From an uncultured Acidobacteriota bacterium (GTDB taxonomy: Bacteria; Acidobacteriota; Thermoanaerobaculia; UBA5066): a DNA stretch of 64,000 nt. The stretch lies in NCBI GenBank assembly GCA_963836285.1, contig CAWIIN010000001.1, positions 482,080 to 546,079 on the forward strand, written 5' to 3'. The notes below the pieces were generated by a model. The model saw nothing but the letters and a program-made list of their open reading frames with translations, did no database searches and had not been told where the DNA came from. A program made the position numbers and the translations under genes. Below are positions 1-53,711 of this stretch, in pieces; position 1 is the first letter of the stretch; each line of letters begins with the position of its first letter.

Positions 1-604
1 GCAGGAGCGTCGCGTAGCCACGCCTCACGGCCGCCTCGAGAGCGAGCGCGACGCGCTCGGGCCCGGTGGCGGAACGATCGGCGTCCGCCTTCGCGACGCG
101 CTCTCGCAATCCGAGTTTTCCCGGGAACGGGATCGCCTGTTGGGCCATGAGCTCGAGGCGCGACATCTGCTGCGCCCCGAGCGACGGCGAGGTTCCGTCG
201 TTGACGTACGTCAGCGAGACCATCGGATCGGGCAGCGCTCCGGCCGGCGAGACGCGCGCACGGGCGGCCGCGGCTTCCTGCCTCGCCGCGGCAAGCTCCG
301 GATTGTTCGCGAGCGCCTCGGCGACGAGCGCGTCGGCTTCCGCCGACGAGGTGAGCGCGGAGCCCGCGCCCGCCGTCGCGGGCGCGCCGGGGGCGGGCGC
401 CGCCGACGCGGTGCCCGCTCGGGGGATTTCTTCAAAGGGTGTGCGGACGGACTCCGCTCGAGAGGGGCCGGCCCACGCGGCGACCAGCACGACCGCCGGG
501 CAAAGGACGCCCACGGCACGCCGCCACCACGAAGCGAACCCGGCTCCCGTCCTGGCACGGGACCCTCTAGGAAATTCTCTCTTCTTCTCTCTTCTTCCAG
601 CCAT
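1..604 (-). CDS. TolC/CzcC-family outer membrane efflux protein, N-terminal part (3' end runs off the window)
   Basis: My own minus-strand translation from the ATG at 604..602 gives MAGRREKKREF..WWRRAVGVLCPAVVLVAAWAG (signal-like). It continues ..AEALANNPELAAARQEAAAARARV..LPDPMVSLTYVNDG..FPGKLGLRE, a typical outer membrane factor N-terminal repeat. It is absent from the ORF track because it is open at the window edge. Confidence 0.7.
   Translation of the reverse strand, partial: MAGRREKKREFPRGSRARTGAGFASWWRRAVGVLCPAVVLVAAWAGPSRAESVRTPFEEIPRAGTASAAPAPGAPATAGAGSALTSSAEADALVAEALANNPELAAARQEAAAARARVSPAGALPDPMVSLTYVNDGTSPSLGAQQMSRLELMAQQAIPFPGKLGLRERVAKADADRSATGPERVALALEAAVRRGYATLL
425..598. repeat. 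TTCTTAGAAGG-core inverted-repeat element, copy 1 (degenerate; inside the 5' end of the TolC-like CDS)
   Basis: The left arm is GATTTCTTCAAAGGGTGTGCGG (425..446). The right arm is CCCTCTAGGAAATTC plus a polypyrimidine tract (563..598). Confidence 0.55.
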
Positions 605-676
605 CTCGATCTCCTCGCGCGAAACGCCTCACGGAGCCGCCCGGAGCGGGCGGCGCAAGAACGATTCTGCGCGGAG

Positions 677-1015
677 TCAGACGCGGAAGACGGAGTGGAG
701 GACGTGCAACGGCGCCGCGCGCGCGCGCGGCGTGACGGGCGCCGGGAGGCTCGGCGAGGCGGGAGCCTCGACCACGACAGCGGGAAGCGTCGCCTCGGCG
801 AGGACGGCCGCGGGCGCGTGGGCGGCGCCGATCGCCGCGGGGGCCGGCGGCACGGGCTTCAACGAGCAGTGGCAGGGCGGGGCGCCCTCGTCCGCCGTCC
901 GGGAGCAGCAGTCCATCTTCGCGGCGCCCCCGCAGGGAGCGGCAGCCGCGAGGCACGCCGCGGGCGCCACCGCGAGCGAGCACGCAAGCAGGACGAGAGG
1001 GAGAGCCCGTCGCAT
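677..1015 (-). CDS. small secreted Cys-rich hypothetical protein (112 aa)
   Basis: This is the tail of track ORF 677..2254. From the ATG at 1015 it reads MRRALPLVLLACSLAVAPAACLAAAAPCGG..MDCCSRTADEGAPPCHC. It has a clear signal peptide and lies directly upstream of the TolC-like gene on the same strand. Confidence 0.5.
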   Translation of the reverse strand: MRRALPLVLLACSLAVAPAACLAAAAPCGGAAKMDCCSRTADEGAPPCHCSLKPVPPAPAAIGAAHAPAAVLAEATLPAVVVEAPASPSLPAPVTPRARAAPLHVLHSVFRV

Positions 1016-50977: not shown

Positions 50978-52351
50978 ATGTCCGCGAGCGCCGACCGCCC
51001 GCCCGTCATCGCGCCCGGCTACACGCCGGCGTCCGTCACCGACAAGATCAGCGCGGTCGTCCTGAACAAGACGCCGAAGTGGTGGTACCTCGCGTTCGGC
51101 GTCTCCTTCGTCGCCCTGCAGCTCCTGCTCCTGACGATGGCCAAGCTCCTGATCGTGGGCGTCGGGATCTGGGGGATCAACATCCCGGTCGGCTGGGGCT
51201 TCGCGATCGTGAACTTCGTCTGGTGGATCGGCATCGGCCACGCCGGCACGCTGATCTCGGCGATCCTCCTCCTGCTGCGCCAGACGTGGCGCACGTCGAT
51301 CAACCGCTTCGCCGAGGCGATGACGCTCTTCGCGGTCGCGGCGGCCGGCACGTTCGTGCTCTTTCACACGGGCCGGCAGTGGCTCGCCGTGTACTGGCTC
51401 TTCCCGTACCCGAACACGATGGGCATCTGGCCCCAGTTCCGCAGCCCGCTCATGTGGGACGTCTTCGCGGTCTCGACGTACGCGACGATCTCGGCGCTCT
51501 TCTGGTTCGTCGGCCTGATCCCCGACCTCGCGACGCTGCGCGACCGCAGCCGTTCCGTCGTCGGCCGGCACGTTTACGGGATGCTCGCGATGGGCTGGCG
51601 CGGCTCGGCGCGGCACTGGCACAACTACGAGGTCGCGAGCCTCCTCCTCGCCGGGCTCGCGACGCCGCTCGTCGTCTCCGTCCACACGGTCGTGAGCTTC
51701 GACTTCGCCGTCGGGATCATCCCCGGCTGGCACGCGACGATCTTCCCGCCCTACTTCGTCGCGGGCGCGATCTACTCGGGCTTCGCGATGGTGATGTCGC
51801 TGTCGATCCCCTTGCGCAAGGTCTTCGGGCTCGAGGACTTCATCACGATGCGGCACCTGCAGAACATGGCGAAGATCATGCTCGCGACCGGCCTCATCGT
51901 CGCCTACGGCTACGCGATCGAGATCTTCATGGCGTGGTACAGCGGGAACCCGTTCGAGGCCTACATGATGCACAACCGGGTCCTCGGCCCCTACGGCCCG
52001 ATCTGGTTCTGTCTCATCCTCTGCAACATCCTGACCCCGCAGCTCCTCTGGATCCGGAAGGTGCGGAACTCCGTCGGGATGCTGTTCGCGATCTCGATCA
52101 TCGTGAACGTCGGCATGTGGCTCGAGCGCTTCGTCATCGTCGTGACGAGCCTTCACCGCGACTTCCTCCCGTCCTCGTGGGACATGTACGTGCCGACGCG
52201 CTGGGACTGGGCGTTCTTCGTCGGGTCGCTCGGCCTGTTCTTCTCGCTCATGTTCCTCTTCATCCGCTTCCTGCCGGTCATCTCGATTTTCGAGATGCGC
52301 ACGATCGCGAAGGGCGGTCCGGCGGACGAGGCTGCCGGGGAGAAGGCGTGA
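50978..52351 (+). CDS. actC: alternative complex III subunit ActC (NrfD/PsrC-like membrane quinol-interacting subunit)
   Basis: 457 aa polytopic protein with the NrfD-like motifs WGFAIVNFVWWIGIGHAGTLISA. Confidence 0.9.
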   Translation: MSASADRPPVIAPGYTPASVTDKISAVVLNKTPKWWYLAFGVSFVALQLLLLTMAKLLIVGVGIWGINIPVGWGFAIVNFVWWIGIGHAGTLISAILLLLRQTWRTSINRFAEAMTLFAVAAAGTFVLFHTGRQWLAVYWLFPYPNTMGIWPQFRSPLMWDVFAVSTYATISALFWFVGLIPDLATLRDRSRSVVGRHVYGMLAMGWRGSARHWHNYEVASLLLAGLATPLVVSVHTVVSFDFAVGIIPGWHATIFPPYFVAGAIYSGFAMVMSLSIPLRKVFGLEDFITMRHLQNMAKIMLATGLIVAYGYAIEIFMAWYSGNPFEAYMMHNRVLGPYGPIWFCLILCNILTPQLLWIRKVRNSVGMLFAISIIVNVGMWLERFVIVVTSLHRDFLPSSWDMYVPTRWDWAFFVGSLGLFFSLMFLFIRFLPVISIFEMRTIAKGGPADEAAGEKA

Positions 52352-52962
52352 GCTTCCTCTCGCGGTTCTTCCCGCGCCACGTCGCGCCCGGGTTCGGGAC
52401 GCCGGGCCCGCGCGAGGGCGGCGGCAACCTCCCGCCGCACCTCTACGGCGTCATCGCCGAGTTCGCGGGCGCGCCCGCCCTCGTCCAGGCCGTGCACCGG
52501 GCCCGCGCGGAGGGCTACGTCGTCATGGAGGCCTACACGCCGTATCCCATCGAGGAGCTGAACGACGCGATCGGGCACGGCCCGTCGCGCGTGCCGCTCC
52601 TCGTCCTGGTCGGCGGGATCCTCGGGTGCCTCGGCGGCTTCTTCCTCCAGTACTGGACCGCGGCGATCGCGTACCCCGTGAACGTCGGCGGGCGCCCTCC
52701 GAACAGCTGGGTCGCCTTCATCCCGATCACGTTCGAGTGCACGATCCTCGGGGCGGGGATCGCCGCGGTCCTCGGGATGCTCATCCTGAACGGCCTCCCG
52801 ATGCCGTTCCACCCGGTCTTCGGCGTGGACCGGTTCCAGCTCGCGTCCCGCGACCGCTACTTCCTCATGATCCTCGCGCGGGACCCGAAATTCCGGGCCG
52901 GAGACACGTTCCGCTTCATGGAGACGCTCGGCGGCGTCCACGTGCAGGACGTGGAGGACTGA
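52348..52962 (+). CDS. actD: alternative complex III subunit ActD (DUF3341)
   Basis: A GTG at 52348 overlaps the actC stop (GTGA). The protein reads LYGVIAEFAGAPALVQAVHRARAEGYVVMEAYTPYPIEEL and has two TM helices. Confidence 0.85.
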   Translation: MSFLSRFFPRHVAPGFGTPGPREGGGNLPPHLYGVIAEFAGAPALVQAVHRARAEGYVVMEAYTPYPIEELNDAIGHGPSRVPLLVLVGGILGCLGGFFLQYWTAAIAYPVNVGGRPPNSWVAFIPITFECTILGAGIAAVLGMLILNGLPMPFHPVFGVDRFQLASRDRYFLMILARDPKFRAGDTFRFMETLGGVHVQDVED

Positions 52963-53711
52963 TGCGCCGCGCGCTCCTCCCCCTCGTCGCGCTCGCTCTC
53001 GCCGGCTGCCGCAACGACATGCACGACCAGGCGAAGACGAAGCCTCTTCGCGAGTCGCCGTTCTTCGCGGACCACGCGTCGGCCCGGCCCCTGCCCGAGG
53101 GCGTCGTCGCGCGGGGCTTCCTTCGCGCCGACGCGGTCCTCTACCGCGGCCTCGGCCCGGACGGGAAGTTCGTCCTCGACCTCCCGGTTCCCGTCACGAG
53201 GCCACTTCTCCTCCGCGGGCGCGAGCGCTTCGACGTCTACTGCTCGCCCTGCCACGGGCGCGCGGGCGACGGCCAGGGAATGATCGTCCAGCGCGGCTTC
53301 AAGAACCCGAGCACGTTCCACGTCGACCGACTCAGGAACGAGCGCGCCGGCTACTTCTTCGACGTCATGACGAACGGCTTCGGCCAGATGTCGAGCTACG
53401 CCTCGCAGGTCGCGCCGGAGGACCGCTGGGCGATCGTCGCCTGGATCCGCACGCTGCAGGCCTCACAGGACATGCCGAGAGAATTTCTTGCTAAAGACGA
53501 CGAAGGGAAGCTCGAGGCGAAAACGGCAAGCGGCGAGGCAGGGGCCATGGCGCAGAAGAGTTCCTTAGAAGGTGACAGCGGGGTAACGGCCGCGCACCCG
53601 GCCCCCGGCGCGGCTCCGGCGGCGCCCGGGCCCTCTTCACCTTCTAAGAAATCTTTCTCTTCATCTTCGTCTTCCCCTTCCTCGTCCTCTCCTCCGAGCA
53701 AGACGCAATGA
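52962..53711 (+). CDS. actE: alternative complex III subunit ActE (monoheme cytochrome c lipoprotein) with an ~80-codon repeat-element-encoded tail
   Basis: It has the lipobox LALAGC and a single CSPCH heme motif. The conserved body ends near ..WAIVAWIRTLQASQ (~53470). The ORF then stays open through the repeat element to a stop that overlaps the actF ATG. Confidence 0.8.
   Translation: MRRALLPLVALALAGCRNDMHDQAKTKPLRESPFFADHASARPLPEGVVARGFLRADAVLYRGLGPDGKFVLDLPVPVTRPLLLRGRERFDVYCSPCHGRAGDGQGMIVQRGFKNPSTFHVDRLRNERAGYFFDVMTNGFGQMSSYASQVAPEDRWAIVAWIRTLQASQDMPREFLAKDDEGKLEAKTASGEAGAMAQKSSLEGDSGVTAAHPAPGAAPAAPGPSSPSKKSFSSSSSSPSSSSPPSKTQ
53478..53695. repeat. inverted-repeat element, copy 13 (between the actE body and actF; two left arms)
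   Basis: A left-arm-like sequence, GAGAATTTCTTGCTAAAGACGACGAAGGG, lies at 53478..53506. The left arm GAAGAGTTCCTTAGAAGGTGACAGCGGGG is at 53555..53583. The right arm GGGCCCTCTTCACCTTCTAAGAAATC plus a polypyrimidine tract is at 53628..53695. Confidence 0.9.

What the first reader, a model, noticed from the sequence alone, without database searches (positions are those of the whole stretch)
425..53695. Dense family of palindromic elements with an AT-rich TTCTTAGAAGG core that I cannot assign to a named repeat family
The window is about 70% GC, yet the AT-rich motif GATTTCTTAGAAGGTGAAGAGGGG or its reverse complement recurs about 27 times at 14 or more loci. It usually occurs as inward-facing inverted pairs 40-115 nt apart.

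The outer side of each arm is a polypurine tract (GAAGAGAAG..). On the right side of the element this appears as a polypyrimidine tract, so a whole unit is a 100-230 bp imperfect palindrome. The core TTCT-N-AGAA is itself a small palindrome.

Spacers between arms are GC-rich and poorly conserved. Copies 5 and 12 share an 11-mer, TCGCGCCGCGG, which is only weak evidence of common descent.

Density is about one locus per 4.5 kb, and the copies sit in housekeeping operons (infB-rbfA, act operon, pnp). The arm sequence does not resemble the REP/BIME, ERIC, BOX, Correia or RPE consensus sequences as I remember them.

Candidate roles are a MITE-like selfish element, an RNA hairpin (processing or stability signal), or a paired protein-binding site.
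Basis: seen in the sequence. Interest (0 to 1): 0.85.

Follow-up and report, generated by a model that had tools for sequence, protein, structure and literature searches.

The report
Acidobacterial inverted-arm repeat, often inside genes
The window carries a real, apparently undescribed family of about 130-150 bp repeat units found only in Thermoanaerobaculia (Acidobacteriota): two inward-facing copies of a conserved TTCTTAGAAGG motif around a non-conserved centre, lying between genes and, unusually, in frame inside genes.

Summary
TTCTTAGAAGG (up to 1 mismatch) occurs 13 times against 0.12 expected, and an arm profile finds about 22-24 arms at 13 loci.

The exact 19-mer TTTCTTAGAAGGTGAAGAG recurs in more than 112 stretches from about 27 species-level MAGs. 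All are Thermoanaerobaculia/Acidobacteriota except one chance Aquifex hit. It is absent from 541 kb of control loci from other lineages.

A unit consists of a purine tract, an arm, a centre (modal inner gap 57-74 nt), an inverted arm and a pyrimidine tract. It is not a long palindrome. Only the arms pair, the centres are unique and show no selected fold, and the two arms differ: one has an extended T2 motif, the other conserves only the core.

Units occur in every intergenic context without strand bias. Roughly a quarter lie in frame inside ORFs with their stop codons mutated away. Examples are an MFS loop, the ActE tail, a DnaE-type polymerase and RNase R. One orthologous site is empty and others carry half-deleted units.

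Between orthologues the 11-nt core is about 91% identical, against 72-80% for flanks, centres and third codon positions.

Best reading: an old RPE/MITE-like insertion family whose core is still recognised by an unidentified protein. No transposase or target duplication was found. It is a new variant of a known kind, of moderate interest.

The parts
411..600 (.). Unit 1. Arms at 428-438 (+, TTCTTCAAAGG) and 563-573 (-, TTCCTAGAGGG), pyrimidine tract 574-600. A possible GTG start of the minus-strand ORF 2-514 lies in the centre, so the left arm would be read as ..TPFEEIP..
4805..4960 (.). Unit 2. T1-type arm at 4835-4845 (+, TTCTTCGAATG) and arm at 4927-4937 (-, TTCTTCGAAGGGCGAAGAGGGG). Lies between two co-directional minus-strand genes.
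13200..13431 (.). Unit 3. Purine tract 13200-13291, T2 arm 13292-13312 (+), 61-nt inner gap, T1 arm 13364-13374 (-), pyrimidine/TCCGAA-repeat tract 13375-13431. On the minus strand an ATG (13352) or GTG (13364) in the centre opens the ORF of the S9 peptidase (11310-13364). That ORF reads through the T2 arm and tract as ..PLHLLRKSSL..FLFFLSSILFF.., which looks like a signal peptide.
16153..16276 (.). Unit 4. Arms at 16173-16183 (+) and 16249-16259 (-), between divergently transcribed genes. The orthologous unit is present in L102 and L195, each with an extra tandem right arm.
21210..21345 (+). Unit 5, in frame in the central loop of the MFS transporter gene (20607-21944, or a later start). Left arm 21245-21255 is mutated to TTCTTTGAAGG (TAG to TTG) and read as EEKISLKV. 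The right arm around 21312-21342 is degenerate and read as SLPLEGK.
23354..23364 (+). Single arm-like motif TTCTTCGAAGG inside the C-terminal coding part of the radical-SAM gene (22197-23432). It is conserved at the same place in L194, L195 and L196 and has no partner. Doubtful member.
24839..24868 (+). Weak single arm (CCCTTAGAAGG, 2 mismatches, E 0.024). No counterpart in L194-L196. Doubtful member.
29500..29690 (.). Unit 8. Purine tract about 29500-29549, arm 29550-29560 (+), arm 29659-29669 (-). The minus-strand BNR/PKD gene probably starts at the TTG at 29592 in the centre (ORF 24901-29592), just downstream of GAGGAGGAG. If so, the left arm and tract encode its N-terminal hydrophobic segment. 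L196 has the unit. L194 and L195 have an ordinary signal peptide there and no arms.
38255..38414 (.). Unit 9, between infB (stop 38251) and the DUF503 gene (start 38415). T1 arm 38286-38296 (+, TTCTTCGAATG), arm 38360-38370 (-).
45249..45322 (+). Half unit after pnp (stop 45248). Purine tract, then arm 45281-45291, then a canonical hairpin GGCCCCGGC-CACG-CCGGGGCC followed by TTTT. The 93%-identical neighbour genome L012 has the full unit here. The window lacks 59 nt that include the T2 arm.
46287..46677 (-). Arms at 46301-46311 (+), about 46434-46458 (-, degenerate) and 46651-46661 (-), all in frame inside the 587-aa membrane-protein ORF 45325-47088 (-). Stop codons are removed (TTCTTTGAAAG; TTCTTGGAAAGGATAAG) and GC3 dips at each arm. 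The arms are also present in L012.
50770..50977 (.). Unit 12, between actB-like (stop 50769) and actC (start 50978). Purine tract, degenerate left arm around 50813-50835, two tandem right arms at 50892-50902 and 50925-50935 (-), pyrimidine tract.
53541..53707 (+). Unit 13. Arms at 53562-53572 (+, TCCTTAGAAGG) and 53640-53650 (-, T2), pyrimidine tract to about 53700. The unit is open in the frame of the actE-like cytochrome c ORF (52962-53711; ..SLEGDSG..PSSPSKKSFSSSS..), whose TGA overlaps the ATG of the next gene (ATGA at 53708-53711).

Best explanation
These are copies of an old, lineage-specific, non-autonomous insertion element of Thermoanaerobaculia. It behaves like Rickettsia palindromic elements or MITEs.

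Anatomy, as shown by the data:
- About 20 nt of purine tract.
- An arm, GGATTTCTTAGAAGG. One of the two arms is extended to ..TGAAGAGGG (the T2 type).
- A centre with no conserved sequence or fold. The gap between the two 11-nt cores is most often 57-74 nt.
- The inverted arm, then a pyrimidine tract.

History, as inferred. The element spread by insertion in an ancestor of this clade. Copies were then inherited vertically. They decay through slippage in the tracts, neutral drift of the centre and deletion of one arm.

Copies survive only where they do no harm. That means intergenic DNA of any orientation, or inside ORFs when they are in frame and their TAG/TGA/TAA codons have mutated away. There they are translated as disordered loops or termini (FLEGEEG...SPSKKSSS, EEKISLKV...). 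Sometimes they supply an N-terminal hydrophobic segment.

The 11-nt core is kept by purifying constraint that acts on the sequence itself, regardless of strand, reading frame or context. I infer that the core is the binding site of a trans-acting protein, either the mobilising enzyme or a host DNA-binding protein that has adopted it. That protein was not identified.
For: Lineage-wide family:
- The exact 19-mer occurs in more than 112 stretches from about 27 species-level MAGs.
- There are 0 arm-profile hits in 541 kb around pnp in 80 loci from other lineages.

The unit is a pair:
- Adjacent arms face inward 103 times and outward 11 times, with a sharp spacing mode.
- 53% of 'single' arms have a decayed partner on the inner side, against 2% on the outer side.

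Insertion character:
- Two units in a DnaE-type polymerase (L072) fall exactly in the two gaps of its alignment to E. coli DnaE.
- The MFS central loop varies in length among orthologues, and arm-derived peptides are its only conserved parts. AlphaFold gives pLDDT below 50 for residues 173-228 there.
- L031 has a clean signal peptide where L111 and L104 carry an in-frame unit (L048 keeps only one arm).
- Roughly 28% of pairs lie in ORFs that stay open across them.

Copying of whole units:
- One centre subtype occurs at non-orthologous loci: L056 and L098 in one genome, plus L044/L097.
- L102_2342 shares its centre with L102_4452.

Decay:
- A 59-nt deletion removed one arm at the window's pnp terminator.
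- Tract length changes between orthologues.

Constraint on the core:
- Core identity between orthologues is 90.6%. Flanks and centre give 75-80% and third codon positions 72%. Arms that caused a locus to be sampled were excluded.
- The same arm is read in different frames in orthologues: FLEGEEG in L001 and L024, ISLKV in L072.

DNA-level rather than RNA-level:
- No bias of unit polarity relative to transcription.
- Intergenic contexts match the background.
Against: - No transposase is associated with the arms. No recurrent protein family that looks like a transposase appears in 0.9 Mb of arm-centred loci. Genes flanked by arms are housekeeping genes. No HUH/RAYT motif was found.
- No target-site duplication and no exact element boundary could be defined.
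- 76 of 103 centres are unique by blastn. Most similar pairs are orthologues. Direct evidence for copy-and-paste of whole units therefore rests on two small groups.
- No clean, recent whole-unit presence/absence difference was seen between genomes more than 85% identical. Only partial deletions were seen.
- At the BNR-gene site the arm aligns with ordinary signal-peptide codons in two relatives. In-situ origin of some arms cannot be excluded.
- Gene calls are from my own crude codon-usage caller. The loci were sampled through a perfect T2 arm. Many MAGs are long-read assemblies that are prone to indels in low-complexity tracts.
Confidence: 0.5

Rival explanations
1. The arm is a host-maintained or drive-maintained DNA signal that evolves in place. 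It could be an uptake-signal-like sequence (as DUS/USS in Neisseria and Haemophilus) or a dispersed binding site for a nucleoid, recombination or segregation protein. In this reading the 'units' are just favoured pairs of such sites, not insertions.
For: - Constraint acts on the sequence of the 11-nt core, independent of strand, reading frame and context.
- The exact 19-mer is conserved across about 27 species.
- Arms occur equally on both strands, often as inverted pairs, inside genes as well as between them, and are distributed like background intergenic regions.
- At one site an arm aligns with ordinary coding sequence in relatives.
- No transposase was found.
Against: - Arms come with 100-150 bp of extra DNA (tracts and centre). 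This DNA is absent from outgroup proteins and from the empty site.
- The partner arm is at a preferred distance and is of a different type.
- A centre subtype is shared by non-orthologous loci.
- Density, about one arm per 2.7 kb in the window, is lower than the roughly 1 per kb of classical uptake sequences (figure from my own knowledge).
- Nothing is known about competence in this uncultured class.
Confidence: 0.25
2. The unit works as an RNA hairpin. It would be an intercistronic processing or stability element, or a factor-independent bidirectional terminator, formed by pairing of the two arms and the purine and pyrimidine tracts.
For: - Whole units fold better than shuffles (median z -2.8; z about -4 for three window units).
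- Several copies lie between cistrons of operons: infB-DUF503 and actB-actC.
- The pnp copy abuts a canonical terminator hairpin.
Against: - There is no compensatory variation. Partner arms match no better than arms from other units.
- Sequence, not structure, is conserved.
- Centres are unstructured.
- The terminator scan of 36-55 kb reports no site coinciding with a unit arm.
- 16 units lie between divergent genes, in proportion to the background.
- About a quarter lie inside ORFs.
- Unit polarity shows no bias relative to transcription.
- No Rfam family matches.
Confidence: 0.1
3. The motif is a compositional or chance artefact of AT-rich intergenic DNA in a GC-rich genome.
For: Purine and pyrimidine tracts are low-complexity sequences and change by slippage.
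Against: - 13 hits against 0.12 expected.
- The exact 19-mer occurs in more than 112 stretches of one class against about 4 expected by chance in the whole collection (my estimate from collection size), with only one hit outside that class.
- No arm-profile hits in 541 kb of control loci, 234 kb of which exceed 65% GC.
Confidence: 0.01

Closest known systems
Rickettsia palindromic elements (RPE)
   Same: - Small (about 100-150 bp) dispersed elements with inverted ends.
- Found both between genes and in frame inside functional protein-coding genes, where they add a peptide segment. RPE behaviour is as summarised in PMC3733652. Here.
- No dedicated transposase is known.
   Different: - Different phylum and base composition, and the sequence is unrelated as far as I can judge.
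- Here only the 11-20 nt arms are conserved, while centres are unique.
- The units have purine and pyrimidine flanking tracts.
- There is no CGTC tag.
- The arms show constraint between orthologues.
REP / BIME / REPIN elements and their RAYT transposases
   Same: - High-copy short repeats, usually arranged as inverted pairs separated by a short spacer.
- Intragenic REPs, notably in replication and repair genes, have been reported (PMC3733652).
- They may serve as protein-binding sites.
   Different: - A single arm is not a stem-loop (fold z about 0).
- There is no GTAG or CGTC tag.
- The inner gap between cores is about 60 nt and not conserved.
- No RAYT/TIRYT-like gene was seen next to arms in 0.9 Mb.
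MITEs such as Correia/NEMIS or ERIC
   Same: - Size class, inverted repeat arms, and insertion in intergenic regions of operons.
- Presence/absence and partial copies among relatives.
   Different: - MITE copies share their whole sequence and end in the TIR with a target duplication.
- Here the interiors are unrelated between copies, the conserved arms are subterminal with tracts outside them, and no duplication or parent IS was found.
DNA uptake sequences (DUS/USS)
   Same: - A short exact motif conserved across a clade, present on both strands.
- Often in inverted pairs, tolerated inside genes, and maintained at the sequence level.
   Different: - The motif arrives with extra DNA and at a preferred pair spacing.
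- Density is lower.
- No link to competence is known for this class.
Integron attC sites
   Same: Conserved inverted end motifs around a centre of variable sequence and length (about 60-140 bp).
   Different: - No RYYYAAC/GTTRRRY cores, no cassette array and no integrase context.
- The centre is not self-complementary.

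Membership tests
REP / REPIN | Each repeat is itself a 20-40 bp imperfect palindrome that forms a stem-loop. | tested here: not met
   The consensus T2 and T1 arms folded as ssDNA give -0.8 and 0 kcal/mol, z -0.04 and +0.9.
REP / REPIN | A GTAG (or CGTC) tetranucleotide tag at one end (PMC3733652). | tested here: not met
   The arm consensus GGATTTCTTAGAAGGTGAAGAGGG contains neither tag.
REP / REPIN | Association with a RAYT (HUH-Y1) transposase gene flanked by the repeats. | tested here: inconclusive
   No HUH-type motif appears in six-frame translations of 0.9 Mb of arm-centred loci. Genes flanked by arms are housekeeping genes. Whole genomes could not be scanned.
MITE | Terminal inverted repeats. 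| tested here: met
   Arms are inverted with 11-20 nt of consensus identity, facing inward 103 times against 11 outward. They are subterminal if the tracts belong to the element.
MITE | Copies share homologous internal sequence. | tested here: not met
   76 of 103 centres have no blastn relative. Only 26 of 4465 centre pairs score above the shuffled maximum, and about half of those are orthologues.
MITE | Target-site duplication and a related autonomous IS. | tested here: inconclusive
   A hypothetical empty target TTCTTAAGAA occurs 0 times. The indels seen are partial deletions without clear duplications. No transposase-like family recurs among the proteins of the arm-centred loci.
Rickettsia palindromic elements | In-frame insertion into ORFs that stay functional. 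| tested here: met
   MFS loop, DnaE-type polymerase, and RNase R-like and other proteins.
Rickettsia palindromic elements | Sequence homology to RPE consensus families. | not tested
Host phylum and GC content differ. Rfam gives no match.
DNA uptake sequences | A short motif over-represented genome-wide on both strands and conserved in the clade. | tested here: met
DNA uptake sequences | Biased uptake of motif-bearing DNA by a competence system. | not testable with these tools
   The lineage is uncultured, and no genome-wide gene inventory was accessible.
Intrinsic terminator | A GC-rich stem-loop followed by a U tract, placed downstream of genes. | tested here: not met
   Centres have no selected fold. 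The consensus scan of 36-55 kb reports no terminator-like site coinciding with a unit arm. Units also lie between divergent genes and inside ORFs. The exception is the half unit after pnp, which adjoins a hairpin followed by TTTT.
Integron attC | RYYYAAC / GTTRRRY core sites, a folded bottom strand, and a cassette array next to intI. | tested here: not met
   The arm sequence differs, the centre is not self-complementary, and copies are scattered among housekeeping genes.

The most novel reading that the evidence does not exclude
The arm is not merely a relic of a selfish element. It would be a functional genome-wide DNA signal of Thermoanaerobaculia, read by a dedicated sequence-specific protein. 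It could be an uptake/recombination signal or a chromosome-organising site, which as far as I know has not been described in Acidobacteria. It would be kept under selection or molecular drive even inside essential genes, and its tracts would be repeatedly co-opted as coding sequence (loops, signal-peptide cores, ribosome-binding sites).
Probability: 0.2. Interest if true: 0.75.

Novelty: new variant of a known kind. Interest (0 to 1): 0.55.

Why it matters
- It adds a second clear case, in a distant and uncultured phylum, of the RPE phenomenon: small repeats that become part of conserved proteins. Here the examples are a DnaE-type polymerase, RNase R, transporters and a respiratory-complex subunit.
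- The termini are conserved in about 27 species while everything else drifts. That makes the family well suited to finding the cognate binding or mobilising protein by phylogenetic profiling. This question is still open for RPEs and CGTC-type repeats.
- In practice, these units will mislead gene callers (wrong starts, fused or split ORFs) and MAG assemblers in this class.
- The units also appear to supply N-terminal hydrophobic segments and linker peptides, which is a small example of new coding sequence arising from repeats.

Tried and rejected
- **Myxococcus and the 'act operon' as developmental genes.** Rejected. The genes are alternative complex III-like (NrfD, Fer4 and cytochrome c domains), and the relatives are Thermoanaerobaculia.
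- **A nested model.** In this model a TA-targeting MITE with GAAGGTGAAGAGGGG ends inserted into a palindromic target GATTTCTTAAGAAATC. Rejected, because TTCTTAAGAA occurs 0 times in 896 kb.
- **Long-palindrome or cruciform structure.** Rejected.
- **Polarity relative to transcription, and avoidance of divergent regions.** Neither was found.
- **A flanking transposase.** I looked at clusters of recurrent proteins, genes bracketed by arms and a regex for HUH/Y1 motifs. Nothing was found.
- **Viral collection.** One chance hit, in a 42% GC phage tail gene.
- **Metagenome scan for the L056/L098 centre subtype.** 0 hits.
- **PNPase-anchored metagenome loci.** Almost all were distant (55-62% identity), so they served only as negative controls. 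The one close locus, L114, ends 30 nt after pnp.
- **Exact-protein look-ups of the window's own ActC and MFS proteins.** Not on record, so the source assembly is unnamed.
- **Resemblance of GAAGGTG to the IS5 terminal repeat and to the anti-Shine-Dalgarno sequence.** Noted from memory only and not pursued as evidence.

Full report

The window is 70% GC. TTCTTAGAAGG with up to one mismatch occurs 13 times against 0.12 expected from dinucleotide shuffles.

I built an ungapped profile from 21 arms. With nhmmer it finds 22 arms at E<0.05 (32 at E<10), grouped at 13 loci between 411 and 53670. The consensus is a purine-rich tract, then GGATTTCTTAGAAGG, then often TGAAGAGGG, then GC-rich DNA. No tRNA gene or Rfam family overlaps any copy, either at gathering thresholds or at E up to 1.

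**2. Where else is it?**

All were from MAGs labelled Thermoanaerobaculia or Acidobacteriota, about 27 assemblies, except one Aquifex contig that is best read as chance.

The viral collection gave one hit, in a 42% GC phage gene, also chance.

As a negative control I used 80 metagenome loci around pnp from organisms whose PNPase is 55-62% identical, plus one at 80%. These total 541 kb, of which 234 kb exceed 65% GC. They contain no arm-profile hit and only three chance matches to TTCTTNGAAGG. The family is therefore genome-wide and restricted to this lineage.

The window's 'act' genes are alternative complex III-like, and the other landmarks (IF-2, DUF503, PNPase) are confirmed. I found no paper that mentions the motif or repeats of this class. 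The reviews of REP, RPE and MITE elements that I read do not cover it.

**3. Anatomy**

In 896 kb (window plus 112 loci) adjacent arms face inward 103 times, outward 11 times and lie in tandem 25 times. The gap between the 11-nt cores has a sharp mode at 57-74 nt and a tail to about 150 nt.

Of 43 strong 'single' arms, 23 have a decayed partner (2 or fewer mismatches in 10 scored positions) on the inner side. Only 1 has one on the outer side. The basic unit is therefore a pair.

The unit is asymmetric. The partner of a perfect T2 arm (..GGTGAAGAGGG) is almost never T2. It conserves only GGATTTCTTNGAAGG.

The unit is not a long palindrome:
- At no position from -45 to +55 do the two arms of one unit match each other better than arms of different units do.
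- Centres trimmed of the arms fold no better than shuffles (median z +0.1). Whole units reach z -2.8, and about -4 for three window units.
- A single arm does not fold.
- Centres are essentially unique. 76 of 103 have no blastn relative.
- Outer tracts are 80-90% purine on the arm strand. They change length between orthologues by slippage.

**4. Genomic context**

I called genes with my own codon-usage caller, which is crude. By those calls, units outside ORFs split as 56 co-directional, 21 convergent and 16 divergent. The background of intergenic regions is 445, 118 and 108.

The T1/T2 polarity shows no bias relative to the sense strand, 24 against 18.

The surprise is the intragenic fraction. 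Depending on the test, 26 of 92 pairs, or 42 of about 180 units, lie in ORFs that stay open across them with high GC3 on both sides. Antisense frames can mimic this signal, so I checked examples by homology.

- **MFS transporter.** The window gene (20607-21944) carries unit 5 in its central loop. The arm is mutated from TAG to TTG. In 26 orthologues the loop reads ..EEKISLKV..[variable or deleted]..SLPLEE/SSPFEE..SSSS. The arm-derived peptides are its only conserved parts, and several orthologues keep one arm or none. AlphaFold2 models residues 173-228 as a coil with pLDDT below 50 between two well-predicted helix bundles.
- **DnaE-type polymerase.** The L072 protein has two units. In a phmmer alignment to E. 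coli DnaE, query residues 122-189 face chain residues 70-79, and query 915-968 face chain 820-834. Both units are therefore insertions.
- **Other proteins.** RNase R-like and several other proteins carry ..FLEGEEG..[30-50 aa]..SPSKKSSS... Orthologues read the same arm in different frames: FLEGEEG in L001 and L024, ISLKV in L072. Conservation is therefore at the DNA level.

In the window itself four loci overlap coding sequence and a fifth probably does:
- The MFS loop.
- The 587-aa membrane protein 45325-47088, with three arms whose stops have been removed.
- The C-terminal tail of the ActE-like cytochrome c. The unit is open in its frame up to a TGA that overlaps the next gene's ATG.
- The N-terminus of the S9 peptidase. 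The ORF starts in the unit centre and reads through the arm and tract as a signal-peptide-like segment. L102 keeps the same frame.
- Probably the N-terminus of the BNR/PKD protein.

**5. Evolution at orthologous sites**

Three scan loci are syntenic with the window: L102 (80% identity), L009 (78-88%) and L012 (87-93%). Three more were fetched through MFS orthologues: L194, L195 and L196. Most units are shared at the same sites, so they are old.

Polymorphisms do exist:
- After pnp, L012 has a full unit. The window lacks 59 nt that include the T2 arm, which leaves a canonical hairpin plus TTTT.
- In the DnaE-type gene, L024 lacks 43 and 71 nt that L072 has.
- At the HtrA/BNR intergenic site, the window and L196 have arms while L194 and L195 do not, although the centre is alignable in all four.
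- In a five-species set, L111 and L104 carry an in-frame unit just after the hydrophobic core of a signal peptide and L048 keeps only one arm. L031 has an uninterrupted signal peptide, that is, an empty site. L015 carries a different palindromic insert there.

I measured conservation across 66 orthologous locus pairs:
- Third codon positions are 72% identical.
- Unit centres are 76.5% identical.
- Outer tracts are 79% identical, with 10% gaps.
- The 11-nt core is 95% identical.

The loci were sampled through a perfect T2 arm, so I repeated the measurement without any arm touching that 19-mer in either genome. That left 61 comparisons. The core is then 90.6% identical, against 75-80% for the positions on either side. 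The core is therefore under sequence-level constraint, and the rest drifts.

**6. Evidence for copying of whole units**

Only 26 of 4465 centre pairs score above the maximum of shuffled controls, and about half of those are orthologues.

Non-orthologous groups do exist:
- L056 and L098 (same genome, different flanks) together with L044/L097.
- L102_2342 with L102_4452 and window 13292.
- A third group lies in paralogous genes and may reflect gene duplication instead.

The sharp spacing mode also fits descent from one master element of fixed length.

**7. What I could not find**

- No transposase. No transposase-like family recurs among the 739 predicted proteins of the arm-centred loci. Genes bracketed by arms are housekeeping genes. 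There is no HUH/Y1 motif in six-frame translations.
- No target duplication and no 'empty target' TTCTTAAGAA.
- No clean whole-unit insertion difference between close relatives.
- A metagenome scan for the L056/L098 centre subtype found nothing.

**8. Interpretation**

The combination of evidence best fits an old RPE/MITE-like insertion family:
- Extra DNA relative to outgroups and to an empty site.
- A fixed modal length.
- An asymmetric pair of arms.
- Occasional shared centres at unrelated loci.
- Tolerance only where harmless.

Pure selfish decay does not explain the conserved core. This implies a sequence-specific trans-acting protein, either the mobilising enzyme or a host protein. That step is inference.

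The main rival is an in-situ, drive- or selection-maintained DNA signal. It explains the constraint but not the added DNA, the spacing or the shared centres. The two readings can be combined as origin and maintenance.

An RNA-hairpin role is disfavoured. There is no covariation, no strand bias, copies lie in divergent and intragenic positions, and centres are unstructured.

**9. Comparison and verdict**

By behaviour the family is closest to Rickettsia palindromic elements. By arrangement it is closest to REPIN/BIME doublets. It fails the defining tests of REP (no self-folding repeat, no GTAG/CGTC tag), of MITEs (no shared interior) and of attC sites and terminators.

I file it as a new variant of the known kind 'small dispersed inverted-repeat elements'. 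The family is real and apparently undescribed, its mechanism is unresolved, and it is of moderate interest.

**Caveats**
- The gene caller is crude.
- The loci were ascertained through T2 arms.
- Long-read MAGs may carry indels in the tracts.
- No complete genome was accessible.

Noticed in passing
window 41076-42555: A 1.48 kb segment between truB and rpsO is absent from the 87-93% identical syntenic locus L012. It holds a Phd/YefM-like antitoxin ORF (about 41144-41431) that overlaps a PIN-domain (VapC-like) toxin ORF (41428-41862; Pfam PIN, E 1e-8). After these comes a roughly 150-nt duplicate of the truB 3' end (41870-42023). It looks like a toxin-antitoxin insertion that duplicated its target.
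   Followed up: partly
window 13200-13364 (-) and 29500-29592 (-); L196 13400-13462; L080 2978-3062; L086 4053-4182: Several ORFs appear to start inside a unit and read out through an arm and its pyrimidine tract. This gives Leu/Phe/Ser-rich N-termini that look like signal peptides, for example PLHLLRKSSL..FLFFLSSILFF in the S9 peptidase and MRRPSPLHLQRNSSLSLLFLSSILFALSSC in L080. In window unit 3 the T1 arm (GAAGGTGGAGG) lies 6 nt upstream of the ATG, like a ribosome-binding site.
   Followed up: partly
L083 6455-6640 (-): In MAG CAWIUK the DnaE-type polymerase ORF ends at the canonical TAG of a T2 arm at insertion site 2 and resumes about 120 nt later as a second ORF. This could be a real interruption, a pseudogene, or a long-read indel in the purine tract.
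   Followed up: partly
L015 3825-4132: L111, L104 and L048 carry a TTCTTAGAAGG unit at this orthologous site, and L031 is empty. L015 instead carries a different, unrelated palindromic insert (TTCCCGAATGACCGATGTCAAGGG...CCCTTGACATCGGACATTCGGGAA). The site may be an insertion hotspot.
   Followed up: no
L195 12822-14338: Relative to the window, L194 and L196, L195 has two extra genes (polyketide-cyclase-like and esterase-like) between the radical-SAM and TPR genes. An exact TTCTTAGAAGG arm lies at 14233, near the start of the esterase gene.
   Followed up: no
window 53708-53711: The actE-like ORF, with unit 13 in frame in its tail, ends in a TGA that overlaps the ATG of the next gene (ATGA). 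This suggests that translational coupling is kept despite the inserted unit.
   Followed up: no
window 50892-50935; L102 7376-7455; L195 5437-5516: Tandem duplications of one arm with part of the centre occur at several units. In the window two right arms lie 33 nt apart.
   Followed up: no
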